Positions 14,296-64,000 of a DNA stretch of 64,000 nt are shown here, piece after piece; within the stretch, counting starts at the first letter, position 1, and each line of letters begins with the position of its first letter. Source of the DNA: Heterodontus francisci (taxonomy: Eukaryota); contig NC_090404.1 of NCBI RefSeq assembly GCF_036365525.1, forward strand, positions 1,984,001 through 2,048,000, read 5' to 3'. Position numbers and translations under genes: made by a program. The notes under the pieces are model-generated. The model was not told the DNA's origin. It searched no databases and saw nothing but the letters and a program-made list of their open reading frames with translations.

Positions 14296-14678
14296 TTATG
14301 AACAGGATTTAAAGCTATCAGTTAGAACAAGTGAGACATTGACCAAGGTGGGTTTGTTATGAGATTTATTGATGCTTCTGAACAAACTGGTTGTGACGGA
14401 CTCGTGTCCCACCACACAGGAATAAGTGGTTCCGCTGTTCCACTCCTCTGCAGAGACTGTCAACTGACTGCCTGAGTTCCAGCCACTTCTGCCATCCTCG
14501 GTCACTGGCTGGTTCACAAACCCTGACTTCAGAAGCGTGTCATTGGCCATCCAGGCCAGGTAGATCTCTGCGGGGGAGAATCCGGTGACCAGACAAACCA
14601 GGGTTGCCGTCTGATCCGTCTCCATCTCATGTGATGAAGGGGGGAGGAGGTAGACTTGAGGATGAGTCTGAACATCAA
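14296..14678 (-). CDS. IgW: IgW terminal constant exon (C6) with secretory tailpiece
   Basis: Acceptor TTTCCAG|TT. C1-set domain PQVYLLPPS..ATLVCLVTGFSPAEIYLAW..EEWNSGTTYSCVVGH. Tail KPTLVNVSLVLTDSFKSCS* has an NVS glycosylation sequon and a penultimate Cys. Confidence 0.93.
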
Positions 14679-15807
14679 CTGGAAACAGAGACAACCTGGG
14701 TTAGACTGAGTCTTTCACTCATCCTGTATTTACCTAACATGTTCTATTCTTCTACAAACCTAGGAACTTTTGCATCCCCAAGAACCCCTCCTATATCAGA
14801 AAGTAAAAGCATTTCTCTCTTTGTTCATTGTTGGAGTAGAGGGTGCATGGGATGGAATCTTCAATCATGCTGATTTTATAACCAGTGAGAATAACTTGTT
14901 CAGTTTAAACATTTGGAGCCAGTGAACAACTGGGACTCTGCAGAAAAAGTGTCCGAATGTTTAATGAGGATGGACTGTTCTTTGAATGATCAATTTAATC
15001 AAAATTCTTAAAATCGTGAGGGATTTTAATGGAATAAATAAGGATAAAGTGTTTCCACTGGTACGAGAGTCAGGAAATAGAGGGCAGTCATTTTAGAGAA
15101 TTGGAAAACAACCAGAGGAAAAGAGAGGAGAATCTTCTTTTGCTCAGCGAGTTCTGATGATCTGGAAAGCACTGCCTGAAAGGGGGTGGTGGAAACAGAT
15201 TAATTAGCAACTTTCACAAGGGAATTGTATATCTGGTTGAAAGAGAGAAAACTGCAAGGCTATTGGGGAAGAGTAGATCGGGTGTGAGATTATTGAATAG
15301 CTCTTTCAAAGAGCTGGCCCAGGGGTGATGGACTGAATGGCCTCCTTCTGTGTTATATGATTCTATGAGAAACATCAGAGATCCACTTCCCAGCCCCTGC
15401 TTACTGTTGTTGAGAGTTAGGCTTCAGGGATTATTCTCGTCCTGTGGTGTCTGCTTCATCTCCCCTTCCTCTTAATGGATTTGCTCGGCTTCAACCTACT
15501 CCTCAGACAGACGATCTCCCTCACCATTCCAATGGCTGACTTGACTCGGGATCTTTCTAATGTTGTGAAAGCTGCTAATCCCTCTCTGTTTATTCCATAA
15601 CCGTGAACTGATTCCATGGGAGTCAGTGTGATTTGGAGTGAGGCTGTTGTGGTGATTTGAGGTTTTATTTGATCTATTTCTTGGCAGTGTTTGCACATCT
15701 CTTGGTCTTTAACACAGTCTGACACCCCGGATTAAACAGCTTACTGTTAGATATTAATAAATCACTTAATTTGCTAAGAACAGACTCACAGTTCCATCCA
15801 CACGTAC

Positions 15808-16128
15808 CTTGAGCTTTCCTGATTGACCTCTTCTCCGGCGTTGGCAAACTCTTGTCCTCCACCAAACACAAATACTCAACCCCACTCTCCCACTCTGCAG
15901 CAGGGACCGTCAGTCTGCTGAAGATCACGTCTTTATCTCCAATCCTCTCGGGACCCTGAGTCTTCACTCCATCTTCTCTCTCACTTCCATCCACCTGCCA
16001 GGTTACCCTGACCCCCTCTAAATCACCATGAAGTACCTCACAAAGAATTGTCGCCATCCTGTTCCTCCAGATCTCTTCAAAAAGAGGCTTGCTTAAGATG
16101 ACCGAGATCCCAGTGTCCAAACATTCAT
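15808..16128 (-). CDS. IgW: IgW constant exon C5
   Basis: CCCAG|AT ... AAG|GTACGT, 321 nt, phase 1/1. DECLDTGISVILSKPLFEEIW..ATILC..VTW..EWESGVEYLC. Confidence 0.92.
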
Positions 16129-16499
16129 CTGGGAGAAATATTACAATATTATTTTCTGATTCCATAATGGGATGTCGGCTTCACTTGCAATGCTGGCATT
16201 TCATGCTCATCTCCAGAGATACAACTGAGTGGTTAGCTTGGCTACTTCAGAGGGGAGTTATGTGTCAAGCACAGTGGTATGGGACTAGAACCACCAGGGT
16301 AAAGGCAACAGGTATCCTTTCCCAAAGGAACATTCACAAACCAGTTGGGTTTTTATGACCATCCGACAGCTTCATGGTCACTTTTATTGAAACCAACTTT
16401 CTATTTCCAAATTTTACTTTTCAAACTGAATTCAAATTCTCAAACTGCCTCGGTGGGATTTGAACTCAGTTCTCAGGATTATGAACTGTACCTGTCAAT

Positions 16500-16960
16500 C
16501 TTGGCTCATTGGTAGGGCCCTCTCCTCTATGTCGGAAGGTTGTGTGTTTAAGCTCCACTCCAGACACTTGAGCACATAATCAAGACCGACGTACCCGGAG
16601 CCAGGACTGAGGGAGTGCATCACTGTCAGACCTGCCGTCTTTCAGATGAGATGTTACACCAAGGCCTACTCTGCCTTCTCAGGTGGACCAAAGTGATCCT
16701 ATGGCCATGATTCAAAAGAGGGAAGGGGAGATGTCCTCCGTGGCCTGGTCAAGATTTATCTCAAATTCAACAACACTGAAACAGATTATCTGGTCATCAT
16801 CATATTGCTGTCTGTGGGACCTTGTACACAAATTATTTGACGCGCTCCTTGTATTACAATAGTGACTGCACTTCAAAAAAATACTTTGTTGGCTGTCAAG
16901 TGTTTTGGAATGTCCTGAGGATGTGAAAGATGCAACAAAAATGCTATTATTTCTTTCTTT
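16500..16960 (+). mobile_element. Deu-domain SINE (paralog of the 27110-27560 copy, duplicated with the exon pair)
   Basis: gagggagtgcatcactgtcagacctgccgtctttcagatgagatg core, at the same position relative to the C4-type exon in both duplicates. Confidence 0.7.
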
Positions 16961-17095
16961 GTCCAGTCCTCTGGCTTTCTAGTCCACTTACAGAACCACT
17001 ACATTACTGCACGTTTTGAACTTGTCTGGACCTAATTGAGTTTATAGCCATCGGGACAAATGATATTAATATTGGAGTCAGGCCCAGGATCCTAC

Positions 17096-17413
17096 CTTGG
17101 ACATTGTTCACCTCCTTGCTGGTTTTGTAGTTGGAGGGTGGATGAGACACTGTGCAGTTGAAGATTGAACCCTTCCTCCACTCCTCTGTACTCACAGTTA
17201 GGTAGTGACTGACACTGAACGTTCCCACCTGCTCCAGAGCAGTGAGTCCAGCGCGGGTGTTGGAGGAGAGCGGAGTACCGTCTTTCTCCCAGAAGACGTG
17301 TATGAGGTCTGGGTAGAATCCAGTGATCACACACTCGAGTGTGACTGTGCTCTTTCTTTTGGTCTCTTGGGCTGGTGGAGGCAGCAGTCTGACAATGGGA
17401 CTTTTTGGCTCGA
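17096..17413 (-). CDS. IgW: IgW constant exon C4' (duplicate)
   Basis: ATTCCAG|TC ... AAG|GTAGGA, 318 nt, open frame. PKSPIVRLLPPP..TLECVITGFYPD..VFW..EEWRKGSIFNCTVSH. Confidence 0.92.
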
Positions 17414-17502
17414 CTGGAATATAGAGGCAAACAAAGGAAGTGTTAAACTTTTTCCTTCAAGTTTAACAAAGTTAGGTGTGTAATTTCTGATCTCTTGCCC
17501 AC

Positions 17503-17805
17503 CTTTTTCACTGCTTATCCGTTTTGACACAGTTGAGGATGAGGAAGCATGTTGGGCAGAGCACTCAAACTCGACCCCGCTGTCCCACTCCTCCACGCTG
17601 GTTTGAAGTTGGCTGATGACCATCTGTAGGGTCCCTTCCTCTGTCGGTCGCTGAGTCTTAACCCCATCACTTCTCTTCTTCCTGCTCACCTCCCAGGAGA
17701 TCTGAACATGGCTGGGATCAGAACAGAGCACTGCACACTCCAGGGTAGCAGTCTTGTTGATCCAAACCTCTTCCATCGAAGGATTTTGGATAAAGACAGA
17801 CATTT
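17503..17805 (-). CDS. IgW: IgW constant exon C3' (duplicate)
   Basis: CTCAG|AA ... AAG|GTGGGC, 303 nt. MSVFIQNPSMEEVWINKTATLEC..ISW..EEWDSGVEFEC. Confidence 0.92.
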
Positions 17806-18787
17806 CTGAGAATGGGAAACGGAAAACTTCAGAAGAACTGACATTGTCTGATGTCAGCAGGCTTCAGAATTTTAGACTTTTCTATTGTTCAATTGAACCA
17901 CACACCATCCTGAGTTGGAAATATTTTGCGGTTCCTTCACTGTCGCTGGATCAAAGTCCTTGAACTTGCTCCCTAACAGCCCTGTGGGTGTACCTGCACC
18001 AGATGCTCTGCAGCAGTTCAAGAAGGCAGCTCACCTTCACTTTCTCAGGGGCAATTAGGGATGAGCAGCAAATGCTGGCCTTGCCTGTGATGCCCACATC
18101 CCATGAAATGAATAAAAAAGATGATGTGATGGAAGGTGAAGACAGAATCCTTTATAATAGATAATATCTTGGGCTGATATTGGATCAAGCGATACTGCAG
18201 CTAAATTTGTAGCAAATTGAACATTAGAAAATCCCAGGGTTATTTAAAAGTTATCTTGAATTTCTTAGCTTTTATGTTTTGATTGAGAAAACATAATGAG
18301 AGCATCTGGAACCCACCAGATCTGTTTTGAATCAGTTTGTCACAACTGTGACCAATAGATCCTCACTGGGGACTGCAATTGAATTGTGGGGCTGAGTGAC
18401 ATTTAGATGTGGTGATGTTAATAAAATGCAATGTCCAGTTTGTGAAATGGACTGATAGAGAGAGAGAGAGAGAGAGACAGATGCTCAGCAAAAGAAACAG
18501 CTGAATAAATGCTTGTTTACTTGCAGCCCCCGTGTGGGGCCGTGGATCGATGGCCTCACCTCTCCCTATCTCTGTTACCTTCAACAGCCTGTCTGATCTT
18601 TTCCAGTCTCATTTTCCTCTTCACTTCCCCTCTCAACTTATTTGGCCTGGTTCTCACTTGAAGATTTCACCTGATGTGCATCATCCACCCTTGTTTTTTG
18701 TTTCATCATATTATCTGTCTCCTTCGTCATCCAACGAACCCTAGCTTTTGTTCCCCTGCTTTTCCCACTTGTTAGAATGTACCCAAC

Positions 18788-20340
18788 CTATACCTGAAAT
18801 ATCTCTTCCTTAAAGATCATCCTTTGTTTCGTTACAGTTTTTCCTGTCAAACTTTGGTTCCATTTTACCCTGGCTGGATCCCCTCTCATCCCATTCAAGT
18901 TAGCCCTCTTCCAATTTAGAAGTTTTACTTTCGATTGTTCTTTGCTCTTCTCCATTATTAATCTAAACCTTATGATACGATGATCACTCATCCCCAAGTG
19001 TTCTCCCACAGACACTTTGTCCACTTGGCCCATCTCATTCCTCAGCACTAAATCCAGCCTGGTTGGACAAAAACATACTGGTCAAGGAAATTCTCCTGAA
19101 CACATTTCAGAAATTCCTCCTGCTCCTTTCCCTTTACTCTAACATGATCCCAATCAATATTTGGGTAATCAAAGCCCCCCAGTATCACCACTCTATTGTT
19201 CTTGCACATTTCTGTGATTTTCCTGCAGATTTGCTCCTCTGTCTCTCTCTCACAATTCGGAGGCAAATAGAATCCCCTCCCCAGTAGTGTGATCATACAC
19301 TTTTAGCTTCTCAAATCTAAACAAATGGATTCCGTCCTTGCCCACTCAAGGACATCCTCTCCTTTCAACACTACAATATCTTCCCTAAACAGTGCTGTCA
19401 CACCATCTTCCTTTTTTCCTTCCTTATCTTTTCTGAGCACTTTCTATCCTTGACGATTCAATGTCTAGTCGCAACATTTTTAAGCCACGTTTCTGTTATT
19501 ACCACGACATCATATTCCCACATGGCTATTTGCACGTGTAGTTTATCTTCCCTATTCACCACACTTTGTGCGTTACATACATGTTTTCTAAACCTGTCTT
19601 TGTATTCTTCATCTTCCTTTTTTTTGATCTGCTTCTATCTGATGTCGTACTACTTCCTTCTCGAGCACTATCCAAGACTCCCACTCCTTTATGTACATTA
19701 TTTCTCTTTTCTACTTTGATATGCAGGTGTGCAGGCCCCTTCCAATTTAGTTTAAACCCTTCCCAATGACACCAGTGAACCTCCCTGTGATGACATTGGT
19801 CCAGTCCTCTTTGGATGTAACCCGTCCCTTTTGAACAGATGCCTCCTGCCCGTGAACTGGTCCCAAAGCCCCAAGAATCTGAAGCCCTTCTTCCTGCATT
19901 CTGCCTCAAGCCACACATTGATCTTCCCTCCCTTCATATTTCTACTCTCACTGGCGCATGACTCTGGGCGTAATCCAGCGATTACTACCTTCGAGGTCTT
20001 ACTTTGTAAACTTCCTCTCTAATTCCTGAATGTCTGACCATAGGACCTCAATACCTTCCCTCTCTATGTTGCTGATACCGACATGCAGCACAGCTTCTGC
20101 CTCACTCCCCTCCCACTGCAGACTATTCTGCACTTTCTCTGTGATGTCCTTTACCCTGGCACCAGGGAGGCAACAAACCATGCAGGACTCATGATGAAGG
20201 TTACAGAAATGCCTGTCTGACCCCCTAACTATGGAATCTCCTAAAGCAACTGTATTTCTATGCTTTGCTGTTCTTCCCTGTGCAGTTCCTTGCCCACTGC
20301 TGCCATCGTCTGGACTACACTCATTCAGTCTCCAGTGCTG
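18788..20340 (-). mobile_element. CR1 LINE 5'-half fragment (ORF1 esterase plus endonuclease), degenerate
   Basis: VALGDSIVRG, CCLPGARVKD, DGLHP, VVILGGFDYPNIDW, GEHLGMSDH. Confidence 0.85.
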
Positions 20341-20883
20341 AGTACTAGTCTGAAAGTGGCACATACCACAAAGACTCCTGCACATCTTCCTGTTTCCTTT
20401 TCAAAGCAAATTCAAATTCTCAAACTGCCTTGGTGTGATTTGAACTCAGTTCTCTGGATTATTAAATGGATATGTTAGCCATGGTTATTTGGTAGGAACT
20501 TCTCCTCTATGTCTGAAGGTTTGTGTGTTCAAAATCTACTCCAGAGACCTGAGCACTTGATCCATGCAGACACTCTCGGTGCCAGTATAAGGGAGTGCTG
20601 CAGATCACAACTGTTCCCCCTCCATATAATGATAAGTTAAAAGTTGGGTGCAGCAGGAAGGATGACTATCATTGTATCAGGATCAAATACTTTAATGAGC
20701 TCTGAGAATTACTTCCTCCAGCTGCAGTTTCAGATGATGTTCAATGCACAGTGTCCGACAAGACTGTCTTTTATTAACTTGAGATGTTCTCACTTTCTCT
20801 CCCCCACCTTTGAAGCAGAATGATGAGCAATATCCTTGCAAAAAAGTGACAGATTGAGACTGATCTCACTGTCACTGTCTGAA

Positions 20884-23800
20884 GTCAATGATTTGTAAAC
20901 CTAGGTTTCATATCCACTGTATATTGTCAATGATTTGTAAACCTAGGTTTCATATCCACTGCATATTGTCAATGATTTGTAAACCTAGGTTTCATATACA
21001 CTCTCTATTGTCAATGATTTGTAAACCTAGGTTTCATATCCACTGCATATTGTCAATGATTTGTAAACCTAGGTTTCATATACACTCTCTATTGTCAATG
21101 ATTTGTAAACCTAGGTTTCATATACACTCTCTATTGTCAATGATTTGTAAACCTAGGTTTCATATACACTCTCTATTGTCAATGATTTGTAAACCTAGGT
21201 ATCATATCCACTGTATATTGTCAATGATTTGTAAACCTAGGTTTCATATCCACTCTCTATTGTCAATGATTTGTAAACCTAGGTTTCATATCCACTGTAT
21301 ATTGTCAATGATTTGTAAACCTAGGTTTCATATACACTCTCTATTGTCAATGATTTGTAAACCTAGGTTTCATATCCACTGTCTATTGTCAATGATTTGT
21401 AAACCTAGGTTTCATATACACTCTCTATTGTCAATGATTTGTAAACCTAGGTTTCATATCCACTGTATATTGTCAATGATTTGTAAACCTAGGTTTCATA
21501 TACACTCTCTATTGTCAATGATTTGTCAACCTAGGTTTCATATACACTCTCTATTGTCAATGATTTGTCAACCTAGGTTTCATATCCACTGTATATTGTC
21601 AATGATTTGTAAACCTAGGTTTCATATACACTGTATATTGTCAATGATTTGTAAACCTAGGTTTCATATACACTCTCTATTGTCAATGATTTGTAAACCT
21701 AGGTTTCATATGCACTCTCTATTGTCAATGATTTGTAAACCTAGGTTTCATATACACTCTCTATTGTCAATGATTTGTAAACCGAGGTTTCATATCCACT
21801 GTATATTGTCAATGATTTGTAAACCTAGGTTTCATATCCACTGTATATTGTCAATGATTTGTAAACCTAGGTTTCATATACACTCTCTATTGTCAATGAT
21901 TTGTAAACCTAGGTTTCATATCCACTGTATATTGTCAATGATTTGTAAACCTGGGTTTCATATACACTCTCTATTGTCAATGATTTGTAAACCTAGGTTT
22001 CATATCCACTGTATATTGTCAATGATTTGTAAACCTAGGTTTCATATCCACTGTATATTGTCAATGATTTGTAAACCTAGGTTTCATATCCACTGTATAT
22101 TGTCAATGATTTGTAAACCTAGGTTTCATATACACTGTATATTGTCAATGATTTGTAAACCTAGGTTTCATATACACTCTCTATTGTCAATGATTTGTAA
22201 ACCTAGGTTTCATATCCACTGTATATTGTCAATGATTTGTAAACCTAGGTTTCATATCCACTGTATATTGTCAATGATTTGTAAACCTTGGTTTCATATC
22301 CACTGTATATTGTCAATGATTTGTAAACCTAGGTTTCATATACACTCTCTATTGTCAATGATTTGTAAACCTCGGTTTCATATGCACTCTCTATTGTCAA
22401 TGATTTGTAAACCTAGGTTTCATATCCACTGTATATTGTCAATGATTTGTAAACCTAGGTTTCATATCCACTGCATATTGTCAATGATTTGTAAACCTAG
22501 GTTTCATATCCACTGTATATTGTCAATGATTTGTAAACCTAGGTTTCATATACACTCTCTATTGTCAATGATTTGTAAACCTAGGTTTCATATACACTGT
22601 ATATTGTCAATGATTTGTAAACCTAGGTTTCATATACACTCTCTATTGTCAATGATTTGTAAACCTAGGTTTCATATACACTCTCTATTGTCAATGATTT
22701 GTAAACCTAGGTTTCATATACACTGTATATTGTCAGTGATTTGTAAACCTAGGTTTCATATCCACTGTATATTGTCAATGATTTGTAAACCTAGGTTTCA
22801 TATACACTCTCTATTGTCAATGATTTGTAAACCTAGGTTTCATATCCACTGTATATTGTCAATGATTTGTAAACCTAGGTTTCATATCCACTGTATATTG
22901 TCAATGATTTGTAAACCTAGGTTTCATATACACTCTCTATTGTCAATGATTTGTAAACCTAGGTTTCATATCCACTGTATATTGTCAATGATTTGTAAAC
23001 CTAGGTTTCATATCCACTGTATATTGTCAATGATTTGTAAACCTAGGTTTCATATACACTCTCTATTGTCAATGATTTGTAAACCTTGGTTTCATATCCA
23101 CTGCATATTGTCAATGATTTGTAAACCTAGGTTTCATATACACTCTCTATTGTCAATGATTTGTAAACCTAGGTTTCATATCCACTCTCTATTGTCAATG
23201 ATTTGTAAACCTAGGTTTCATATACACTCTCTATTGTCAATGATTTGTAAACCTAGGTTTCATATCCACTGTATATTGTCAATGATTTGTGAACCTAGGT
23301 TTCATATGCACTCTCTATTGTCAATGATTTGTAAACCTAGGTTTCATATCCACTGTATATTGTCAATGATTTGTAAACCTAGGTTTCATATACACTCTCT
23401 ATTGTCAATGATTTGTAAACCTAGGTTTCATATCCACTGTATATTGTCAATGATTTGTAAACCTAGGTTTCATATCCACTGTATATTGTCAATGATTTGT
23501 AAACCTAGGTTTCATATACACTCTCTATTGTCAATGATTTGTAAACCTAGGTTTCATATCCACTGCATATTGTCAATGATTTGTAAACCTAGGTTTCATA
23601 TACACTCTCTATTGTCAATGATTTGTAAACCTAGGTTTCATATCCACTCTCTATTGTCAATGATTTGTAAACCTAGGTTTCATATACACTCTCTATTGTC
23701 AATGATTTGTAAACCTAGGTTTCATATCCACTGTATATTGTCAATGATTTGTGAACCTAGGTTTCATATGCACTCTCTATTGTCAATGATTTGTAAACCT

Positions 23801-24270
23801 AGGTTTCATATCCACTGTATATTGTCAATGATTTGTAAACCTAGGTTTCATATACACTCTCTATTGTCAATGATTTGTAAACCTAGGTTTCATATCCACT
23901 GTATATTGTCAATGATTTGTAAACCTAGGTTTCATATACACTCTCTATTGTCAATGATTTGTAAACCTATGTTTAATATACATCGGATATAGTCAAGAAT
24001 GGTAAACCTGGATTTAATATACACCATAAGTAGTCACTAATTTGTAAATCTAGGTTTAATATACACTGTGTGTGGTCAATGATTTGTAAACCTTGGTTTA
24101 GTATACACTGTCTATATTCAGTTATCTGTAAACCAAGGTTTAGTATACACAATGTCTAGTCAATGATTTGTAAACCTCGGTTTAATGTACACCATATATG
24201 GTAAATAATTTTAAAAACCTAGGTTTGATATACACTATGTAGGTTTCATATACACTGTGTATAATCAATA
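20884..24270. repeat. 42-bp AT-rich tandem satellite (~74 homogeneous plus ~7 degenerate copies) in the C4-C3' intron
   Basis: Unit gtcaatgatttgtaaacctaggtttcatat(ccactgta/acactctc)tatt. Contains the palindrome AAACCTAGGTTT. Confidence 0.98.
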
Positions 24271-24279
24271 ATTTAGAAT

Positions 24280-24915
24280 CACAGAATAATACAGTACAGA
24301 AGAGGCTCTTCGGCTCATCGAGTCTGCACCGATGCATTAATCCCATTTGCCAGCACTTGGCCCATAGCCTTGAATGTTATGACGTGCCAAGTGCTCATCC
24401 AGGTACTTTTTAAAGGATGTGAGGCAACCTGCCTCTACCACCCTCCCAGGCAGGGCATTCCAGACCGTCACCACCCTCTGGGTAAAAATGTTTTTCCTCA
24501 AATCCCCCTTAAACCTCCTGCCCCTCACCTTAACCTTGTGTCCCCTCGTAACTGACCCTTTAACTAAGGGGAACAGCTGCTCCCTATCCACCCTGTCCAT
24601 GCCCCTCATAATCTTGTACACCTCGATCAGGTCACCCCTCAGTCTTTTCTGCTCCAGCGAAAACAACCCAAGCCTATCCAACCTCTCTTCGTAGCTTAAA
24701 TGTTCCATCCCAGGCAACATCCTGGTGAATCGCATCTGCACCCCCTCCAATGCAATCACATCCTTCCTATAATGTGGCGACAAGAATTGCACACAGTACT
24801 CCAGCTGTGGCCTTACCAAAGTTCTGTACAACTCCAACATGACCTCCCCGCTTTTGTAATCTATGCCTCGATTGATAAAGGCAAAGGCAAGTGTCCCATA
24901 TCCATTTTTCACCAT
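24280..24915 (-). mobile_element. CR1 LINE 3' fragment
   Basis: LYRTLVRPQLEYCVQF..RGDLIEVYKI..TRGHK, followed by the 3' UTR. Confidence 0.88.
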
Positions 24916-24929
24916 TTGTCAGCTTCGGA

Positions 24930-25950
24930 GGGAGTTGAAGGTTTAAGGTAGTCGATGGGGTGCCAATCAAGAGGGCTGCTTTGTCCTGGATGGTTTCGAC
25001 CATCTTGCGTGTTGTTGGAGCTGCACCCAACCAGGCAAGTGGAGAGTATTCCATCACTCTCCTGACTTGTGCCTTGTAGATGGTGGACAGACATTGGGGA
25101 TACAGGAGGTGAGTTACTTGCTGCAGAATTCTCAGCCTCTGCCCTGCTCTTGTAGCCACAGCATTTATGTGGCTGGTCCAGTTCAGTGTTTGGTCAATGG
25201 GGCCCCCAGGATGTTGATAGTGGGGGAATTGAGCAATGGTAATGCCATTGAACGTCAAGGAGAGATGGCTAGATCCACTCTTGTTTGAGATGGTCATTGC
25301 CTGGCACTTGTGTGGCGTGGCGTGAATGTTACTTGCCACTTATTAGTCCAAGCCTGGGTGTTGTCCAGGTCTTGATGCATATGGACACGAGCTGCTTCAG
25401 TATCTGAGGAGTCACGAATGGTGCTGAACATTGTGCAATAATCAGTGAATATCCCCACTTCTGACCTTATGCTGGGGACAAGGTCATTGATGAAAAAGTT
25501 GAAGATGGTGGGGCCTAGGACACTACCCTGAGGAACTCCTGCAGTGATGTCCTGGGAATGAGATGACTGGCCTCCAACAATCACAACCATTTTCCTTTGT
25601 GCTAGGTATGACTCCAACCAACAGAGACTTTCCCCCCTGATTACCATTGTCTCCACTCCTTGATGCTATACTCAGTTAAAAGCTGCCTTGATATCAGGGG
25701 CAATCGCTCTCATCCTCACCTCTGGAGTTCAGCTCTTTTGTCCACGCTTGGATCAAATCTATAATGAGGTCAGCAGCTGAGTGGCTCTGGCAGAACCCAA
25801 ACAGAGCGTCAGTGAGGAGGTTATTCCTGAGCAAGTGCCGTCCGATAGCACCGTCAACGACCCGTTCCATCACTTTGCTGGTGATCGGGAGTAGACTGAT
25901 AGGGTGCTAATTGGCCAGGTTGGATTTGTCCTGCTTTTTGTGCACAGGAC
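24930..25950 (-). mobile_element. CR1/L2-group LINE RT fragment (same family as 3921-4970)
   Basis: [27 protein letters not shown] and QVRRVMEYSPLAW. Confidence 0.85.
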
Positions 25951-27109
25951 GTGGAAGGATTTGAACCCATTTCCCCAGGGCATTAGCCTGGGGCTCTGGT
26001 TTACTAATCTAGTGATATTCTACTACGCTGCCACCACCTCCCCCTGCTGACATCAGTACCTAGGTTTGGGGAGTGAAGGGAACTCTTTCTTTTTCTGCTG
26101 ATCAGAGTTTTTATTTAAAACCTACCAGGTCGTTCATGGCACCAGTTAAATCTTTGTGTCCTGAATCACCAATTTGCCTCAGGACCACCATCATTGAGGG
26201 TTAATCCTCCCTGTTACTGGATCAAGGTGATATTTCTCATCACCCTGCCTCCTCCCTCACCACGTCCCAACCCCCCCACGGCCTCGCTGGGTAACAAAGA
26301 GGCTTCCAATTTTTGTGAACTAGAGTCATTCCTGAGAGGTGATGGTCAAGTGGTGTGGCCGAGACCCTATCCAACCTGATCCACCACAGGTCACAAAAAG
26401 AAAATGACCATTTATACAAGGAGTGGGTTGGGTGAGGAACCCAAGCTCGGGCTGTAACTTCTCACACTGTTTACACTTTCACCCAGACAGACACCATGGG
26501 CTGGATTTAAACCTACCAAATGGTTTGTAATAAAATTCAACGGCCAATTCCATTCACAACCAATCACTTTATTTTGCACGCTTGTTGGTGACAGTTATAT
26601 TGGAGCTGACCTCCATTTTCAAGGGTCACATTAAGGTCAGTCTGGTAAACAAGCTTTGGCATACACCCAGAACAAGAGGAAGGAGGACAAGTGCAGGGAG
26701 TGTTTCCACCTGGAACAGGAAGATTTACATTTCCACCTGGAATTGGAAGAGTTGCAGATTTAAGTGTTATACAATTTCACCTCCCCTCCCCCATGCTAGG
26801 AAATTGGGAGCTCCACACGGCCCTGAACTCTGCTCCATCCTGTATTTTTAGGATCCTCATGTTTCTCGATCATGAGGACCATGACAAGCTGCTTCACCTT
26901 GACCAGAACAGTAGGATCAGAGGACATGACCTGTGCTTGAAGGGAGTAGGATGGCAATTCAAAACTAATGCAGGGAACAAATATTTCAACCTCCGGAGTT
27001 TTCACTTTTACTGATACTAGTTGTTTATTTCCAGTTCTTACTTTAAAACGGAATTCAAATTCTCAAACTGCCTTGGTGAGATCTGATCTTATTTCTCCTG
27101 ATTATTAAC

Positions 27110-27560
27110 TAGAAGGACTCTCTCCACTATGTCAGAAGGCCATGTGTTCAAATCCCACACCAGAGACATGAGCATATAATCCAGGCCACCAATCTTGGTG
27201 TCAGGACTAAGGGAGCACTGCACTGTTGGACGTGCCATCTTTCAGATGTGACAATAAACCGAGGCAACGTCTACCCTCTCAGGTGGAACAAAAAGATCCT
27301 GCAGACAGTATTTCTAAGAAGAGAAGGGGAGATCTTCTCTGTGGCTGTCTAACATTTATCCCTCAACCAGCAACACGAGAACAGATAATCTGGTCAGCAC
27401 CACATTGCTGTTTGTGGGACCTTGCTGTCTGCAAATTAATTGATGTGTTTTTACATTACAACAGTGACTACACTTCAAAACAAAAATACTTTGTTGGCTG
27501 CAAAGCACTTTGGGATGTCCTGAGGTTGTGAAGGGAGCTACATGAATGCAATTGTTTCTT
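27110..27560 (+). mobile_element. Deu-domain SINE
   Basis: gggagcactgcactgttggacgtgccatctttcagatgtg...ctcaggtggaac core. Confidence 0.7.
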
Positions 27561-27702
27561 TCTTTACTTGCCTTGGCCTCTGGATTATTGTCCACATACA
27601 TAACCACTACATTACCATACCTCTGTCATTAGTGTTGAACTTGTCTGACTCTTGTCATGTTTTTAAGTTATGTTAATATTGGATTCAGGCCCAGGATCCT
27701 AC

Positions 27703-28014
27703 CTTCGATGTTCTTCACCTCCTTGCTGGTTTTGTAGCTGGAAGGTGGATGAGACACTGTACAGGTGAAGCTTGAACCTTTCGTCCACTCCTCTGTACTC
27801 ACAGTCAGGTAGTGAGTGACACTGAATGTTCCCTCCTGTTCCAGAGCGGTGAGTCCAGCGCGGGTGTTGGATGTGATCGGAGCACCGTCTTTCTCCCAGG
27901 AGACGTGTATGAGGTCCGGGTAGAATCCAGTGATCACACACTCAAGGGTGGCCGTGCTCTCATTCTTGGTCTCTGGTGGAGGCAGTAATCTGACCATGGG
28001 ACTTTTTGGCTTGG
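27703..28014 (-). CDS. IgW: IgW constant exon C4
   Basis: TTCCAG|CC ... AAG|GTAGGA, 312 nt, phase 1/1. PKSPMVRLLPPP..ATLECVITGFYPD..VSW..EEWTKGSSFTCTVSH. Confidence 0.92.
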
Positions 28015-28103
28015 CTGGAACAGACAGGTAAAGAAAGAAGGTGTTAAACTCCTTCCCTCAAGATTAACAAAGCCAAGCATTTAATTTCTGATCTCTTGCC
28101 CAC

Positions 28104-28406
28104 CTTTTACATTCTTTACCCGTTTTGACACGGGTGAGGACGAGGAAGCACTTTGGGCAGAGCACACAAATTCCACTCCGCTGCCCCACTCCTCCGCACT
28201 GGTTCGGAGTTGGCTGATGATGATGTATTGAGTCCCTTCCTCTGTTGGGCGCTGAGTCGTTACCCCTTCACTTCTCTTCTTCCTATTCACATTCCAGGAG
28301 ATTTGGACCTTGCTCGGATCAGAACAGACCACTGTACACACCAGGGTAGCAGTCTTGTTGATCCAAACCTCTTCAATAGAAGGCTTTTGAATAAAGAGAG
28401 ACATTT
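28104..28406 (-). CDS. IgW: IgW constant exon C3 (first C exon present)
   Basis: TCCTAG|AA ... AAG|GTGGGC, 303 nt. MSLFIQKPSIEEVWINKTATLVC..ISW..EEWGSGVEFVC. Domain numbering is inferred from resemblance to IgW C3/IgNAR C2. Confidence 0.9.
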
Positions 28407-30215: not shown

Positions 30216-30658
30216 ATGATTCCCTGTCAAGGAAGATGGTTAGTTTGCAGTGGCAGAACAACCCTTGAATCAGAAGAAGTAACAGAAGTCCACCTCTTTC
30301 TGCAGGTTAGGGATCGTTTCTACACAACATGTACTTCACCCCTCCCAGTTTCATTTTCATTGGACTGGGAAGATAATGATTTATTGAATTCTTCACATTT
30401 TCTTCTTTGCACTAGTCTCCTAAAGGACCATCGCCACTTGAAATATCCCACAGCTCACTGTGTGTTCTGTATACTATCAACATCTTCATCCCAGAGCTGT
30501 TACTCGGCACTGTTTCCTCTTTTTCAACTAATATCTTCAAAGAAAGTTGTTCACACATCCGGATTATTGAATCAGGATCTGATTTATATCCACTGGACAT
30601 GAGGTAAAAGCCGGTGATATCATCTGAAGAGTCCAGTTCAAATAGCTTTCATGTGGCA

Positions 30659-30697
30659 GGTTTTTGAATGAAGGGAGCCCCCATCTCTCACACTGTG
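30659..30697 (-). promoter_or_regulatory. 23-bp-spacer recombination signal sequence (23-RSS)
   Basis: Perfect heptamer CACAGTG (30697-30691), 23-nt spacer, nonamer TCAAAAACC (8/9 match). Confidence 0.95.
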
Positions 30698-31005
30698 CCA
30701 CCCAGTATATCTCGCACAGTAATACATGGCAGTGTCCTCAACTCTCAGATTATTCAGTTGTAGATAGGCGGTGTTGCCGCTCTTGGAAACTTCGAATCGG
30801 CCTTGAACTCCAGATGCGTAATACTTGCTACCAGAAGAAGCTATAACCGCGACCCACTGCAGCCCTTTCCCGGGGACCTGTTTCGCCCAGTGCATGCCGT
30901 AGCTGCTGAGGCTGAACCCACTCACTCCACAGGACAATTTGTGAGACTCCCCGAGCTTTTTCACAGCTGAATCGGGCTGGGTCAACACGATATTGGACCG
31001 GACAC
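30698..31005 (-). CDS. IgW: IgW VH exon with a D-like 3' extension (probable germline-joined VD)
   Basis: AACAG|[52 protein letters not shown] then YTGW before the heptamer. Both Cys and the Trp are conserved; no stops. Confidence 0.93.
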
Positions 31006-31125: not shown

Positions 31126-31171
31126 CGGTTAGACAGGCCAGAAGGACACAGAGATAAGGAGCAATCCCCAT
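31126..31171 (-). CDS. IgW: IgW leader (signal peptide) exon
   Basis: [19 protein letters not shown]|GTGAGT, 46 nt, phase 1, with a 120-bp intron to V. Confidence 0.93.
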
Positions 31172-49622: not shown

Positions 49623-49654
49623 GTCAAAGGTACTTAAAACCCGTCACCAACACC

Positions 49655-51672: not shown

Positions 51673-52863
51673 GGGCTCCAAGAGCTACGTCCACTCCCAA
51701 GAAACAAAACAAATTTACACAATTTTAAAAAAAAGCAAACTTTAAACAAGTTGGAGTGGGAGTAGAGGAGGATGGCGTAGGATGGTAAAGGAAAAGGGGA
51801 GGATAGGTGACTGAGGCGACTGAGTGGAGGAAGGGAGAGAAAGGCTGAAAAGGATGTTTGTTCCAACTGCCAGTTGGAGCACCTTTATCACAATTAGTCC
51901 AAACTTGTTTGTTGTCTTCCAGTTGGGGGAGGCTTCTTCGCCCGGGACGGCTGGAGCCGCCCGGTACTCTCCTCTTCTGATTTTAACAAGACAGTCTTCA
52001 CCCGGGCAACTCCAGCTGTCCCGAGCAGGCAGTTGGGGTGGGGAGGGAGCTCCCTGTGTGCAAACACCAATACAAACACAGGGGCCCCTACTGGATTTGG
52101 CTGCCCCACCCCTGAGTCTTCAGGCCTCTTCTCCCTCCCCCAAACAGTTTAAACTTAATAGTCTTTCAGGTGCCCTGACACCCACCTCTCCAGAAAAATT
52201 GCAGCCTTCCTTGATGGTTTCCCTCCACTCTGTATTCACCTTTCTCCAGTCCCTCTCCCCAGTTGGTGCAGTCTCCACTCTGTATTCACCTTTCTCCAGT
52301 CTCTCTCTCCAGTTGCTGCAGTTTCCAGTCTCCACTCTCCTCTCCCCAGTTGCTGCAGTCTCCACTCTCCACTCTGCAATTGCTGCAACACAGGTGCAGC
52401 TGCTCCCCCTGATTGCTGGCAGGAAGTGCTCCAAATTGACCAGCCAATCCCAGTGCTGTACCTGTCCTGGGAGTGTTTGATGGGGACTGTGTGGAGGGAG
52501 CTTTACTCTGTATCTAACCCCATTTTTTTTTTGATGGGGACAGTGTCGAGGGAGATTTACTGTGTATCTAACCCCATTTTTTTCTTTTTTTCCCCTTTTT
52601 TTATTTCCTGTAACCCATTTTTATTTGGGACAATGTAAAAGGAGCTTGACTCTGTGTCTCACCCCATGCTGTACCTGTCTTGGGAGTGTTTGATGGGGAC
52701 AGTGTAGAGGGAACTTTCCTCCTAATCTCACCTATGTTGTTCTTGTCCTGGGAGTGTTTGACAGGACAGGGTAGATTGAGATTTACTGATTTACTGTCTC
52801 TCTTGCCTGTACTGTCACTATCCTGCAGTGTTTGATGGGACAGTGCAGAGGGAGCTTTACTCT

Positions 52864-57057: not shown

Positions 57058-57345
57058 ACATACCAACCTGACTTGGAACTATATCACCATTCCTTCACTG
57101 TTGCTGTGTCAAAATCCTGGAACTCCCTTCCTAACAGCACTGCAGATGTCCCTGTACCCCATAGAATACAGCAGTTCAAGAAGACGACTCACCACCACCT
57201 TCTTATGGACAATTAGTGATGGGCAACAAATGCAGGTGTTGCCATCAATGCTCACATGCTATGAAAAAAATTGGAACCTGTTGTGTATCTGTCCTGCCAG
57301 ATTTCATTGGGATATTGTAGAGGGAGCTTTGCTCTCTATCTAACC

Positions 57346-57553: not shown

Positions 57554-58184
57554 CTCTATCTAATGTGTGCTATGCCTGCCCTAGGAGTGTTCAAATGGGA
57601 CAGTCTAGTGGGATTACAGAGAAAGTGAACTGTTTACTTTATGTATCATGGAAAACTGGCATTCTGGTGTTCAAATTAATCCTGAATGAATGCTCCAGAA
57701 AGCCCTCGATGAGCAGCCCTCGTTTACTAGAAGCACAGTGTCTATTTGTTATTAATATTTAACAGATGTCCGAAACTCAGCGATAACATCAAGACTAGTT
57801 CCTTCTCATTACACTTCCTCTCAGAGATCACAGTCCAGTTTAATCTGAGCAGGGGGACCTCCCAGAGGAACAATGTTACTAAAAAGAATAAGCACGCTGC
57901 TTTAGATATGGAAATACAATTCTGATTTTGTTCTTTGCACCAACAAACAGGTTTATATTTACCGAAAGGGGACAGACTGGCAGAACTGAAACTAATGGGC
58001 AAAAGATCTCCAACATCAAGATTTCATCCTCACCTCAGAGCTGACTCAAACCCACAGTTAACGTTCAAAATCTCCTGTTAAACATGTACTGAGGAAGGTA
58101 TGGATAACAAATTGGGTTATTGTACAGAGAGATTTATCATCTCAATTTAACGGTGTTGGCCGGTTTTATCACAAAGATGGACTG

Positions 58185-61100
58185 GGGAAACTACATAAAC
58201 ACAGTTACAGTGTGGGACTGTTCACAGTGTGAGGGAACTGTACATAAACACAATTACACTGTTGGACTGTACATGGAGTGTGGGAACTGGACATAAACAC
58301 AGTTACAGTGTGGAACTGTACACAGAGTGAGGGAACTCTCCATAAACACAGTTACAGTGTGGGACTGTACACAAAGTGAGGGAACTCTACAAAAACACAG
58401 TTACAATGTGGAACTGTACACAGAGTGAGGGAACTCTACACAAACACAGTGACAGTGTGGGACTGTACACACAGTCAGGAAACTCTACATAAACACAGTT
58501 AGAGTGTGGGACTGTACACAAAGTGAGAGAATTTTACATAAACACAGTGACATTGTGGGAATGTACACAAAGTGAGGGAACTCTCCATAAACACAGTTAC
58601 ACTGTGCGACTTTACATAGAATGAGGCAACTAGACATAAACACAGTGACAGTGTGGGACTGTACAGAGAGTGAGAGAATTTTACATAAATACAGTGACAG
58701 TGTGAGACACTCCACAGAGTAAGGGAACTGGACAGAAACACAGTTACAGTGTGGGACTGTACACAGAGTGAGGGAACTGTACAGAAACACAGTGACAGTG
58801 TGGGACTGTACACAGAGTGAGGGAACTCTACATAAATACAGTAACAGTGTGAGACACTCCACAGAGTAAGGGAACTGTACATAAACACAGTGACAGTTTG
58901 GGACGGTACACAGAGTGAGGGAACTGTACAGAAACATAGTGACAGTGTGGGACTGTACACAGAGTGAGGGAACTCTACATAAACACAGTGACAGTTTGGG
59001 ACGGTACACAGAGTGAGGGAACTGTCCGGAAACACAGTGACAGTTTGGGACGGTACACAGAGTGAGGGAACTGTACAGAAACACAGTGACAGTTTGGGAC
59101 GGTACACAGAGTGAGGGAACTGTACAGAAACACAGTGACAGTGTGGGACTGTACACAGAGTGAGAGAATTTTACATAAATACAGTGACAGTGTGAGACAC
59201 TGCACAGAGTAAGGGATCTGTACAGAAACACAGTGACAGTGTGGGACTGTACACAGAGTGAGGGAACTCGACATAAACACAGTTACAGTGTGAGACACTC
59301 CACAGAGTAATTGAACTGTACAGAAATACAGTGACAGTGTGGGACTGTACACAGAGTGAGGAAACTCTACATAAACACAGTACAGTGTGGGACTGTACAC
59401 AGAGTAAGGGAACTGTGAAGAAACACAGTTACAGTGTGGGACTGTACACAGAGTGAGGGAACTCTACATAAACACAGTTACAGTGTGGGACTGTACACAG
59501 AGTAAGGGAACTGTACATAAACACAGTTACAGTGTGGGACTGTACACAGAGTGAGGGAACTCTACATAAACACGGTTACAGTGTGGGACTGTACACAGAG
59601 TGAGGGAACTCTACATAAACACAGTGACAGTGTGGGACTGTACACAGAGTGAGAGAATTTTACATAAATACAGTGACAGTGTGAGACACTCCACAGAGTA
59701 ATTGAACTGGACAGAAACACAGTGACAGTGTGGGACTGTGCACAGAGTGAGAGAATTTTACATAAATACAGTGACAGTGTGAGACACTCCACAGAGTAAG
59801 GGAACTGTACAGAAACACAGTGACAGGGTGGGAATGTACACAGAGTGAGGGAACTGTACATAAACACAGTTACAGTGTGGGACTGCACACAGAGTAAGGG
59901 AACTGTGCAGAATCACAGTTACAGTGTTGGACTGAACACTGTGTGAGGGAACTCTACATAAACACGGTTACATTGTGGGACTGTACACAGAGTAAGGGAA
60001 TTGTACAGAAACACAGTGACAGTGTGGGACTGTACACAGAGTGAGGGAATTTTACATAAATACAGTGACAGTGTGAGACACTCCACAGAGTAAGGGAACT
60101 GTACAGAAACACAGTGACAGTGTGGGACTGTGCACAGAGTGAGAGAATTTTACATAAATACAGTGACGGTGTGAGACACTCCACAGAGTAAGGGAACTGT
60201 ACAGAAACACAGTGACAGGGTGGGAATGTACACAGTGTGAGGGAACTGTACAGAAACACAGTTACAGTGTTGGACTGTACACTGAGTGAGGGAACTCTAC
60301 ATAAACACGGTTACAGTGTGGGACTGTACACAGAGTAAGGGAACTGCACAGAAACACAGTTACAGTGTGGGACTGTACACAGAGTGAGGGAACTCTACAT
60401 AAACACAGTGACAGTGTGGGACTGTACACAGAGTGAGAGAATCTTACATAAATACAGTGACAGTGTGAGACACTCCACAGAGTAAGGGAACTGTACAGAA
60501 ACACAGTGACAGTGTGGGAATGTACACAGAGTGAGGGAACTCTACATAAACACAGTTACAGTGTGGGACTGTACGCAGAGTGAGGGAACTCTACATAAAC
60601 ACAGTTACAGTGTGAGACACTCCACAGAGTAAGGGAACTGTACATAAACACAGTGACAGTTTGGGATGGTACACAGAGTGAGGGAACTGTACAGAAACAT
60701 AGTGACAGTGTGGGACTGTACACACAGTGAGGGAACTCTACATAAACACAGTTAGAGTGTGGGACGGTACACAGAGTGAGGGAACTGTCCGGAAACACAG
60801 TGACAGTTTGGGAGGGTACACAGAGTGAGGGAACTGTACAGAAACACAGTGACAGTTTGGGACGGTACACAGAGTGAGGGAACTGTACAGAAACACAGTG
60901 ACAGTGTGCGACTGTACACAGAGTGAGAGAATTTTACATAAATACAGTGACAGTGTGAGACACTGCACAGAGTAAGGGATCTGTACAGAAACACAGTGAC
61001 AGTGTGGGACTGTACACAGAGTGAGGGAGCTCTACATAAACACAGTTACAGTGTGAGACACTCCACAGAGTAATTGAACTGTACAGAAATACAGTGACAG

Positions 61101-64000
61101 TGTGGGACTGTACACAGAGTGAGGAAACTCTACATAAACACAGTACAGTGTGGGACTGTACACAGAGTAAGGGAACTGTGAAGAAACACAGTTACAGTGT
61201 GGGACTGTACACAGAGTGAGGGAACGCTACATAAACACAGTTACAGTGTGGGACTGTACACAGAGTAAGGGAACTGTACATAAACACAGTTACAGTGTGG
61301 GACTGTACACAGAGTGAGGGAACTCTACATAAACACGGTTACAGTGTGGGACTGTACACAGAGTGAGGGAACTCTACAGAAACACAGTGACAGTGTGGGA
61401 CTGTACACAGAGTGAGAGAATTTTACATAAATACAGTGACAGTGTGAGACACTCCACAGAGTAATTGAACTGGACAGAAACACAGTGACAGTGTGGGACT
61501 GTGCACAGAGTGAGAGAATTTTACATAAATACAGTGACAGTGTGAGACACTCCACAGAGTAAGGGAACTGTACAGAAACACAGTGACAGGGTGGGAATGT
61601 ACACAGAGTGAGGGAACTGTACATAAACACAGTTACAGTGTGGGACTGTACACAGAGTAAGGGAACTGTGCAGAATCACAGTTACAGTGTTGGACTGTAC
61701 ACTGTGTGAGGGAACTCTACATAAACACGGTTACATTGTGGGACTGTACACAGAGTAAGGGAATTGTACAGAAACACAGTGACAGTGTGGGACTGTACAC
61801 AGAGTGAGGGAATTTTACATAAATACAGTGACAGTGTGAGACACTCCACAGAGTAAGGGAACTGTACAGAAACACAGTGACAGTGTGGGACTGTGCACAG
61901 AGTGAGAGAATTTTACATAAATACAGTGACGGTGTGAGACACTCCACAGAGTAAGGGAACTGTACAGAAACACAGTGACAGGGTGGGAATGTACACAGTG
62001 TGAGGGAACTGTACAGAAACACAGTGACAGTGTGGGACTGTACACAGAGTAAGGGAACTGTACAGAAACACAGTTACAGTGTTGGACTGTACACTGAGTG
62101 AGGGAACTCTACATAAACACGGTTACAGTGTGGGACTGTACACAGTGTAAGGGAACTGCACAGAAACACAGTTACAGTGTGGGACTGTACACAGAGTGAG
62201 GGAACTCTACATAAACACACTGACAGTGTGGGACTGTACACAGAGTGAGAGAATCTTACATAAATACAGTGACAGTGTGAGACACTTCACAGAGTAAGTA
62301 AACTGTGCAGAAACACAGTGACAGTGTGGGAATGTACACAGAGTGAGGGAACTCTACATAAACACAGTTACAGTGTGGGACTGTACGCAGAGTGAGGGAA
62401 CTGTACATAAACACAGTTACAGTGTGAGACACTCCACAGAGTAAGGGAACTGTACATAAACACAGTGACAGTTTGGGATGGTACACAGAGTGAGGGAACT
62501 GTACAGAAACATAGTGACAGTGTGGGACTGTACACAGAGTGAGGGAACTCTACATAAACACAGTTAGAGTGTGGGACGGTACACAGAGTGAGGGAACTGT
62601 CCGGAAACACAGTGACAGTTTGGGAGGGTACACAGAGTGAGGGAACTGTACAGAAACACAGTGACAGTTTGGGACGGTACACAGAGTGAGGGAACTGTAC
62701 AGAAACACAGTGACAGTGTGGGACTGTACACAGAGTGAGAGAATTTTACATAAATACAGTGACAGTGTGAGACACTGCACAGAGTAAGGGATCTGTACAG
62801 AAACACAGTGACAGTGTGGGACTGTACACAGAGTGAGGGAACTCTACATAAACACAGTTACAGTGTGAGACACTCCACAGAGTAATTGAACTGTACAGAA
62901 ATACAGTGACAGTGTGGGACTGTACACAGAGTGAGGAAACTCTCCATAAACACAGTACAGTGTGGGACTGTACACAGAGTAAGGAAACTGTGAAGAAACA
63001 CAGTTACAGTGTGGGACTGTACACAAAGTGAGGGAACGCTACATAAACACAGTTACAGTGTGGGACTGTACACAGAGTGAGGGAACTGTACATAAACACA
63101 GTTACAGTGTGGGACTGTACACAGAGTAAGGGAACTGTGCAGAATCACAGTTACAGTGTTGGACTGTACACTGTGTGAGGGAACTCTACATAAACACGGT
63201 TACATTGTGGGACTGTACACAGAGTAAGGGAATTGTACAGAAACACAGTGACAGTGTGGGACTGTACACAGAGTGAGGGAATTTTACATAAATACAGTGA
63301 CAGTGTGAGACACTCCACAGAGTAAGGGAACTGTACAGAAACACAGTGACAGTGTGGGACTGTGCACAGAGTGAGAGAATTTTACATAAATACAGTGACG
63401 GTGTGAGACACTCCACAGAGTAAGGGAACTGTACAGAAACACAGTGACAGGGTGGGAATGTACACAGTGTGAGGGAACTGTACAGAAACACAGTGACAGT
63501 GTGGGACTGTACACAGAGTAAGGGAACTGTACAGAAACACAGTTACAGTGTTGGACTGTACACTGAGTGAGGGAACTCTACATAAACACGGTTACAGTGT
63601 GGGACTGTACACAGAGTAAGGGAACTGCACAGAAACACAGTTACAGTGTGGGACTGTACACAGAGTGAGGGAACTCTACATAAACACAGTGACAGTGTGG
63701 GACTGTACACAGAGTGAGAGAATCTTACATAAATACAGTGACAGTGTGAGACACTCCACAGAGTAAGGGAACTGTACAGAAACACAGTGACAGTGTGGGA
63801 ATGTACACAGAGTGAGGGAACTCTACATAAACACAGTTACAGTGTGGGACTGTACGCAGAGTGAGGGAACTCTACATAAACACAGTTACAGTGTGGGACT
63901 GTACACAGAGTAAGGGAACTGTACGGAAACACAGTGAAAGTGTGGGACTGTACACAGACTGAGGGAACTCCAGATAAACACAGTGACAGTGTGGGCCTGT
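58185..64000. repeat. 49-bp tandem satellite (>=118 copies, runs off the window) with higher-order structure
   Basis: Unit acagtgtgggactgtacacagagtgagggaact(g/c)taca(g/t)aaacacagt(g/t). Period 49 (59431 and 59480). Confidence 0.98.

What the first reader, a model, noticed from the sequence alone, without database searches (positions are those of the whole stretch)
58185..64000. Satellite built from 12-RSS-like units near an orphan 23-RSS V gene
Seen: nearly every 49-bp unit reads CACAGAG + exactly 12 nt (TGAGGGAACTGT) + ACA(G/T)AAACA, which is 6/7 heptamer and 7/9 nonamer with the critical CAC and A-tract kept. Some units have the perfect heptamer (58223-58250, 60231-60258) or an 8/9 nonamer (58370-58397). 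A second CACAGTG lies 16 nt upstream, giving a heptamer-16nt-heptamer D-like layout (ACAGTGTGGGACTGTA). Inference: more than 100 tandem cryptic 12-RSSs lie 27 kb from a V whose 23-RSS has no partner. They could be an amplified D/RSS relic, a RAG sink, or a deleting element; the orientation would excise the V and leave a signal joint. Chance resemblance in a CA-rich repeat is possible.
Basis: partly seen in the sequence, partly recalled or inferred. Interest (0 to 1): 0.7.

Follow-up and report, generated by a model that had tools for sequence, protein, structure and literature searches.

The report
Shark satellite with weak accidental RSSs
A 49-base repeat, grown to 45,000 bases beside a broken shark antibody gene, loosely resembles the signal that the antibody-shuffling enzyme cuts, but it is likely an accidental look-alike amplified like its neighbouring repeats, and most of its copies are predicted to be cut only weakly.

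Summary
The array is real and larger than seen: 861 units over 45 kb. The RSS match is overstated: 13 of 118 window units read the quoted motif; 70 reach 13/16 or more. Its main heptamer, CACAGAG, has a purine at position 6 and scored 190-300 times below consensus in a published assay with heterologous RAG; 38 of 861 units have a good heptamer. The second heptamer has no nonamer, so the unit is not a D. The 'orphan V' is a germline-joined V-D1 whose 23-RSS is D1's; a 15.9-kb deletion removed D2-D3-J-CH1-CH2. The repeat exists as 15-25 units at three sister positions, one with a broken nonamer, and expanded only here, as one of six arrays over 20 kb in 814 kb. Best reading: an ordinary locus-specific satellite with fortuitous cryptic 12-RSSs, like mouse gamma-satellite. 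Weak signals for D-origin or RAG contact remain (p about 0.002-0.1, uncorrected). The scan noted similar RSS-like shark minisatellites on other DNA.

The parts
58185..64000 (+). 49-bp satellite, first 5.8 kb of a 45-kb array (G000:C34:2042192-2087504); each unit holds a heptamer-like, 12 nt and nonamer-like stretch
58223..58250 (+). unit with consensus heptamer; the other window units with CACAGTG or CACTGTG start at 59937, 60231, 61700, 61994, 62141, 63169, 63463 (8 of 118)
57557..58190 (+). left flank, shared with three sister positions (92-97% identical) that carry short versions of the repeat
31126..31171 (-). leader exon of the IgH V gene
   Evidence: spliced leader-V joint in contigs of three runs guessed to be RNA
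30711..31005 (-). IgH V exon, 99% identical to the unrearranged sister V at C34:1851419-1851718 region; its own RSS is gone
30698..30710 (-). germline coding joint: one extra base plus D1 lacking its first two bases
   Evidence: one DNA contig of 204 bases with no difference bridges it in each of two DNA runs of the same sample
30659..30697 (-). 23-RSS of D1 (7/7, 8/9), the 'orphan' signal
30480..30482 (.). breakpoint of a 15.9-kb deletion (sister C34:1834875-1850776) that removed D2, D3, J, CH1 and CH2; no RSS at the break
   Evidence: bridged by one contig
14296..28370 (-). six remaining constant exons (3 to 8 of the eight in the sister cluster), IgW-type by exon number
   Evidence: PMC5192425 passages

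Best explanation
This is a locus-specific 49-bp repeat that expanded to 45 kb in one of four sister segments of a shark IgH region, likely by ordinary unequal exchange and block duplication, and its resemblance to a 12-RSS is likely accidental and predicted to give only weak, occasional RAG cutting. Shown: the repeat sits at the same flank in four sister segments and is short (about 15-25 units) in three; the unit holds a 17-nt internal duplicate at 20-nt offset, whose two ACA ends supply the start of the heptamer and of the nonamer; the long array holds exact multi-kb block repeats. Inferred: the short state is ancestral; amplification ignored RSS quality; the 4% of units with a good heptamer could serve as rare off-target 12-RSSs. 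Separately shown: the neighbouring gene is a V-D1 join with a deletion of D2-D3-J-CH1-CH2; inferred: RAG made the join in the germ line, and the gene is a pseudogene whose state owes nothing to the array.
For: Dominant heptamer+2 values in SARP-seq (PMC9723617 dataset S1): CACAGAGTG 0.0039% and CACAGAGTA 0.0060% against 1.144% for consensus, rows 1668 and 1531 of 1883; these make up 650 of 861 units; purine at position 6 is disfavoured more than tenfold. A weight matrix from 11 real 12-RSSs of this genome scores real signals 14-36 bits (left out in turn), array units median 9.4, spacer -0.4. Changes towards consensus are rare: 43, 1 and 0 of 834 units at the three mismatched places; perfect heptamers are 3 of 24 in the short sister arrays and 28 of 861 in the long one. 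All 16 RSS positions are no less variable than the rest (p 0.2-0.3; rank 23 of 49). The fourth sister amplified a 47-bp variant with nonamer 4-5 of 9 at 12 nt. Internal duplicate p = 0.008. Six arrays over 20 kb fill 31% of 814 kb fetched. The pattern CACAGAG-N12-ACAWAAAC has 207 genome matches, 160 in this family, 47 outside against 65 for the reversed control. No real RSS shares the spacer: 9 of 9 matches are family members. Precedent and a background of about 5e-4 cryptic RSS per base: PMC2193808.
Against: The 13/16 match is above local chance (0.04 expected among 25 families). Seven positions that I picked from recalled knowledge as RAG-critical (CAC; nonamer 2, 5, 6, 7) vary less than base-matched positions (p 0.015-0.027, best of 49 slid masks), weakening to p 0.095 (rank 2 of 49) when changes are counted on a tree and to p 0.14-0.66 by allele class. 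The unit aligns to IgM D1 with its RSSs at p 0.002-0.01. SARP-seq used core RAG in HEK293T cells with a perfect nonamer; a real shark IgM V heptamer+2 (CACAGCGAG) scores only 0.0135% there, and mouse J-alpha segments with purine-6 heptamers are cut in vivo, so low values do not mean inert. Summed over 713 of 861 units the array equals about 8 consensus signals before any nonamer penalty.
Confidence: 0.78

Rival explanations
1. The unit is a decayed IgM D1-type segment or 12-RSS that was duplicated head to tail and then amplified (relic, no present function).
For: Local alignment of the unit to the reverse strand of IgM D1 covers both heptamers and the 12-RSS: score 33-34, p 0.004-0.01 against shuffles, 0.002 against 3,999 genomic windows. 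It lies in an IgH region. Unchecked scan notes report RSS-derived repeats elsewhere in this genome.
Against: Best 2 of 10 segments tested, and those two are the same D1 family; no IgW segment aligns (p 0.08-0.5). The match is weaker for the older seed consensus (26-29, p 0.005-0.016), the wrong direction for descent. Spacer identity to 13 real 12-RSSs is 2-7 of 12 against a mean of 7.2 among real ones. No second nonamer. No real RSS with this spacer. The internal duplicate explains the spacing without an RSS.
Confidence: 0.12
2. The array is a selected deleting element or RAG sink: its 12-RSSs pair with the 23-RSS at 30697 to excise the V, or soak up RAG.
For: Orientation allows deletion with a retained signal joint; 38 of 861 units have a heptamer+2 scoring 0.13-0.26% in SARP-seq; the harmless-sink idea is in print for mouse gamma-satellite (PMC2193808).
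Against: The adjacent gene already lacks J, CH1 and CH2; the intact sister has about 15 units; at three diagnostic V sites the RNA-guessed contigs of two runs carry the sister's letters at full depth; shark IgH rearrangement is reported to stay within miniloci with about 400-bp distances (PMC2435157 passages); the array moved away from consensus as it grew.
Confidence: 0.04
3. An accidental RSS-like seed was nicked by RAG in germ cells, and repair of those nicks drove the expansion of this array next to the cluster that also underwent germline V-D joining.
For: RAG-like activity in shark germ cells is reported (PMC2193156 passages); the expanded copy is a germline-joined one; CAC and the A-tract are slightly more stable.
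Against: Five other arrays over 20 kb nearby (four families) expanded with consensus units of 7-11/16; the other germline-joined cluster expanded a different, 57-bp repeat; n = 4 sisters; no joint-like scar found in the array.
Confidence: 0.06

Closest known systems
Cryptic RSSs in mouse 234-bp gamma-satellite (Cowell et al. 2003, PMC2193808; passages seen)
   Same: Tandem satellite whose units hold a fortuitous RSS-like sequence of variable quality; proposed there as off-target substrate or harmless sink.
   Different: There 23-type, genome-wide, and shown to recombine in 2 of 3 tested units; here 12-type, confined to four sister positions of one IgH region, untested, dominant heptamer poor.
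Partially germline-joined IgH clusters of cartilaginous fish (VD-J, VD-DJ; PMC5192425, PMC2193156; passages seen)
   Same: V fused to D1 with a trimmed, one-base-added joint; D's 3' RSS kept; a second cluster nearby is VD-DJ.
   Different: Here IgW-type with three Ds in the intact sister, and followed by a non-RSS deletion of D2-D3-J-CH1-CH2.
Mammalian kappa deleting element / RS (recalled; one search gave a search listing only)
   Same: An isolated RSS outside the coding segments that could inactivate a gene by V(D)J recombination.
   Different: A single strong conserved signal serving a working locus; here hundreds of weak, unconserved copies beside a broken gene.

Membership tests
Physiological 12-RSS | CAC at heptamer 1-3 and 12-nt spacer | tested here: met
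   780 of 861 units begin CAC (sum of classes); spacer 12 nt
Physiological 12-RSS | Efficient heptamer (pyrimidine at position 6) | tested here: not met
   789 of 834 units have A at 6; 190-300 times below consensus in SARP-seq; all 13 real 12-RSSs listed have T or C there
Physiological 12-RSS | Nonamer with A-tract | tested here: met
   7/9 in the consensus, equal to the real IgW D1 nonamer by count; 4.8 bits against 7-12 for real ones
Physiological 12-RSS | Flanks a V, D or J coding segment | tested here: not met
   the flank is the next repeat unit; no V, J or C motif found in the 200 kb fetched beyond 2108001
Physiological 12-RSS | RIC12 above -40 | not testable with these tools
   the RIC script lies in a supplement too large to read; a shark weight matrix was used instead
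Physiological 12-RSS | Cleaved and joined by RAG | not testable with these tools
   no assay; no raw lymphoid reads held
IgH D segment | Complete RSS on both sides | tested here: not met
   second heptamer has 1-3 of 9 nonamer matches on either strand
IgH D segment | Homology to a D of this genome | tested here: inconclusive
   IgM D1 p 0.002-0.016, best of 10 segments, weaker in older units
Satellite with fortuitous cryptic RSS (gamma-satellite type) | Tandem array whose unit carries heptamer-spacer-nonamer likeness without a coding segment | tested here: met
Satellite with fortuitous cryptic RSS (gamma-satellite type) | Some units recombine or are cut by RAG | not testable with these tools
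   predicted for 38 of 861 units from SARP-seq rows
Deleting element (kde/RS type) | Conserved signal beside working loci | tested here: not met
   45 kb beside the broken copy, about 15 units beside the intact one, nonamer broken in the fourth
Germline-joined VD of cartilaginous fish | V and D fused with loss of both inner RSSs in genomic DNA | tested here: met
   DNA contigs at depth 12, like neighbours, same sample as far as listed
IgW | IgH V with six to eight C exons in a cluster | tested here: met
   eight C exons in the sister; V matches antibody heavy chains; criterion from PMC5192425; no direct match to a named IgW was run

The most novel reading that the evidence does not exclude
A D1-derived or accidental 12-RSS seed became a 45-kb array that shark RAG really engages: nicking in germ cells fed its growth beside a germline-joined IgW gene, and in lymphocytes its better units pair with the stranded D1 23-RSS 27 kb away, making it a natural deleting array and the first RSS satellite shaped by RAG.
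Probability: 0.08. Interest if true: 0.7.

Novelty: new member of a known kind. Interest (0 to 1): 0.25.

Why it matters
As most likely read it matters little: it adds a shark example of cryptic RSSs in satellite DNA and a warning that RSS scans of shark Ig regions will hit minisatellites. The by-product is more solid: four sister segments showing an open V-D-D-D-J cluster, a VD join and a VD-DJ join side by side, useful for studying germline RAG joining in IgW. If RAG does act on the array, it would link germline RAG activity to satellite growth and give a directly testable long-range off-target substrate in a locus thought to recombine only over short distances.

Tried and rejected
Homology of the 49-mer to the neighbouring 57-bp minisatellite looked plausible by eye but was not significant (p 0.10). 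A predicted signal joint between D1's RSS and the array has 0 matches in the assembly and none of six joint or RSS fragments occurs in the array; a germline assembly would not be expected to hold a somatic joint, so this says little. Contigs laid on the V-D region showed no loose end with array letters among the 11 listed, but contigs drop rare variants: no evidence. No listed run is on record as RNA; three are guessed RNA. The one other-individual run laid gave 0 reads: no test of whether the join is shared. The DNA search with 106 bases of array listed 150 of 189 matches, all in the family; that search skips common words, so distant relatives may be missed. True RIC could not be computed. 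Paper searches for RSS-bearing minisatellites gave 0, 1 and 2 unrelated listings; the gamma-satellite precedent came through scan notes, so these searches are not exhaustive. No other shark genome was available. No earlier scan note lay near this place.
Full report
Setting. The window is G000:C34:1984001-2048000 of a 6.0-Gb genome. It carries an IgH V gene and constant exons in cluster form, which marks a cartilaginous fish. I fetched 750 kb of neighbouring C34 and five 10-kb stretches around other V hits.

The array. TRF gives a 49-bp repeat at 58192-64000, 118.6 copies, continuing to C34:2087504. It has 861 units, 834 of them followed by the next at exactly 49 bases, 215 distinct, with one 2.6-kb LINE-like insert. 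Exact repeats of 600 bases or more recur at 1.1-11.4 kb spacing, i.e. block duplications. The consensus is CACAGAG, 12 nt, ACA(G/T)AAACA. In the window 13 of 118 units read the quoted motif, 60 have both heptamer and nonamer as quoted, 70 have CAC and at least 13/16. The second heptamer is CACAGTG in 371 of 834 units and has no nonamer on either strand.

How good an RSS. In SARP-seq (PMC9723617; passages and supplement rows seen) a purine at heptamer 6 is disfavoured over tenfold. CACAGAGTG and CACAGAGTA, 404 and 246 of 861 units, score 0.0039% and 0.0060% against 1.144% for consensus, below the 0.024% an average library member would get. The 38 units with CACAGTG or CACTGTG score 0.13-0.26%. 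Weighted over 713 of 861 units the array is worth about 8 consensus signals before nonamer penalties. Caveats: heterologous core RAG, perfect nonamer; a real shark IgM V heptamer+2 scores only 0.0135%; purine-6 J-alpha signals are cut in mouse. A matrix from 11 distinct real 12-RSSs of this genome puts real signals at 14-36 bits and array units at median 9.4, maximum 19.5; 12 of 15,816 background CAC sites reach the array median. So the unit is better than background and worse than real signals. RIC could not be run (PMC12205992 abstract and sections 9 and 25 seen).

Chance. 0.42% of shuffles reach 13/16 at 12 nt, 1.5% at any spacer; 0.015-0.04 families expected among 25 local ones, 1 seen; none of the 25 TRF rows in the next 200 kb exceeds 11/16. 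This is mildly above local chance, but the finding was selected after the fact. A 28-bp satellite nearby gives 12/16 at 22 nt in 173 units and 13/16 in 4. Genome-wide, CACAGAG-N12-ACAWAAAC has 47 matches outside the family against 65 for the reversed control. Cowell et al. estimate about 5e-4 cryptic RSS per base (PMC2193808 passages). The unit has a 17-column internal duplicate (15 identities, one mismatch, one gap) at 20-nt offset, p 0.008; its two ACA ends are the ACA before and in the heptamer start and the nonamer start, which produces the 12-nt spacing without an RSS ancestor (inference).

Distribution and history. An exact 32-mer has 131 genome matches, all in 464 kb of C34; a 20-mer has 348, 336 there and 12 in a fourth, inverted sister. 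The flank occurs four times at 92-100%. Sisters at 1.874 and 1.677 Mb hold 10 + 4.8 units split by an insert; the sister at 1.384 Mb holds 20.5 units of a 47-bp variant with 4-5 of 9 nonamer matches at 12 nt. By parsimony the short state is ancestral. Six arrays over 20 kb (57, 28, 28, 49, 28 and 58 bp units) fill 31% of 814 kb, so large expansion is the local norm.

Selection. Alleles towards consensus: 43, 1 and 0 of 834. Perfect heptamers: 3 of 24 seed units, 28 of 861 in the long array. The 16 RSS positions are not more stable than others. Against this, seven positions chosen from recall as critical are more stable (p 0.015-0.036; 0.095 on tree counts and 0.14-0.66 by allele class); the 17 common alleles fall into 7 linked blocks, so the tests have few independent events. 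I leave this as inconclusive.

Origin from an RSS. Of 10 real segments, only the two IgM D1 copies align above shuffles (p 0.004-0.01; 0.002 against genomic windows). The older seed consensus aligns less well (p 0.005-0.016). No real RSS in the genome has this spacer (9 of 9 matches are family). A relic origin is unlikely but not excluded.

The 'orphan V'. The sister cluster at C34:1852-1817 kb is open: V-23, 12-D1-23, 12-D2-23, 12-D3-12, J, eight C exons, IgW by exon number (PMC5192425 passages). The window's V ends in the full V end, one extra base and D1 less two bases, followed by D1's 23-RSS; this RSS type occurs 4 times in the genome. 230 bases on, a 15.9-kb deletion removed D2, D3, J, CH1 and CH2. 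DNA contigs of two runs of one sample bridge the joint without difference at depth 12, similar to neighbours. The inverted cluster at 1.444 Mb is VD-DJ with different joints. Such partial germline joins are known (PMC5192425, PMC2193156 passages). In contigs of two runs guessed to be RNA, three diagnostic V sites carry the open sister's letters at full depth; contigs cannot give levels. Shark IgH rearrangement is reported to stay within miniloci (PMC2435157 passages), though V-to-TCR-delta trans-rearrangement occurs (PMC12227049 passages). The nearest canonical 12-RSS in deletional orientation that my scan found is the sister's D1, 164 kb away.

Verdict. A real satellite with a weak, probably accidental 12-RSS likeness, of the kind described for mouse gamma-satellite, next to a germline-joined and truncated IgW gene. 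The scan has noted similar RSS-like shark minisatellites on other DNA (unchecked notes). Interest 0.25. Unseen material that may bear on this: the RIC script and model in the supplement of PMC12205992, and subscription papers on shark IgW loci.

Noticed in passing
G000:C34:1444154-1446300 (L051): A second germline-joined IgW-type cluster, VD-DJ, with its own joints; both inner RSSs (23 and 12) are kept 1.7 kb apart; four C exons found by motif. Loose ends in RNA-guessed contigs carry its joint letters.
   Followed up: partly
G000:C34:1849430-1851720 (L020): Open cluster with three Ds, D1 and D2 being near-identical duplicates; the J heptamer has a poor nonamer at 22-23 nt.
   Followed up: partly
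G000:C34:1953185-1974754 and 1777692-1798733: 28-bp satellite, 21 kb twice, whose units read as heptamer + 22 nt + nonamer at 11-13/16 (CACAGTA in 173 units with 6/9 nonamer), on the same strand as the 49-bp array; the period of 28 makes this self-generated.
   Followed up: partly
window 43199-43667; C34:1395970-1430382: The 57-bp minisatellite has 8, 13 and 22 units in three sisters and about 604 in the fourth: each sister expanded a different repeat.
   Followed up: partly
window 20884-24236 (+): 42-bp repeat in an intron of the Ig gene gives a 1042-codon stop-free frame on the opposite strand; probably an accident of the unit.
   Followed up: no
window 33553-35895 (+), 45891-51684 (-), 52941-57058 (+): Non-LTR retrotransposon-like reading frames (label from recalled motifs, no family search) fill the 27 kb between the V and the array; one frame of 1250 codons is open.
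   Followed up: no
G000:C34:2109843-2142432 and 2190780-2287099: Further giant arrays (28 bp x 1164, 58 bp x 1672) beyond the finding; no V or C motif in these 200 kb, so the array lies at the edge of this Ig group.
   Followed up: partly
G000:C34:1657784-1658815 (L039): 84-bp repeat typical of a C2H2 zinc-finger gene where the third sister segment would have its V.
   Followed up: no
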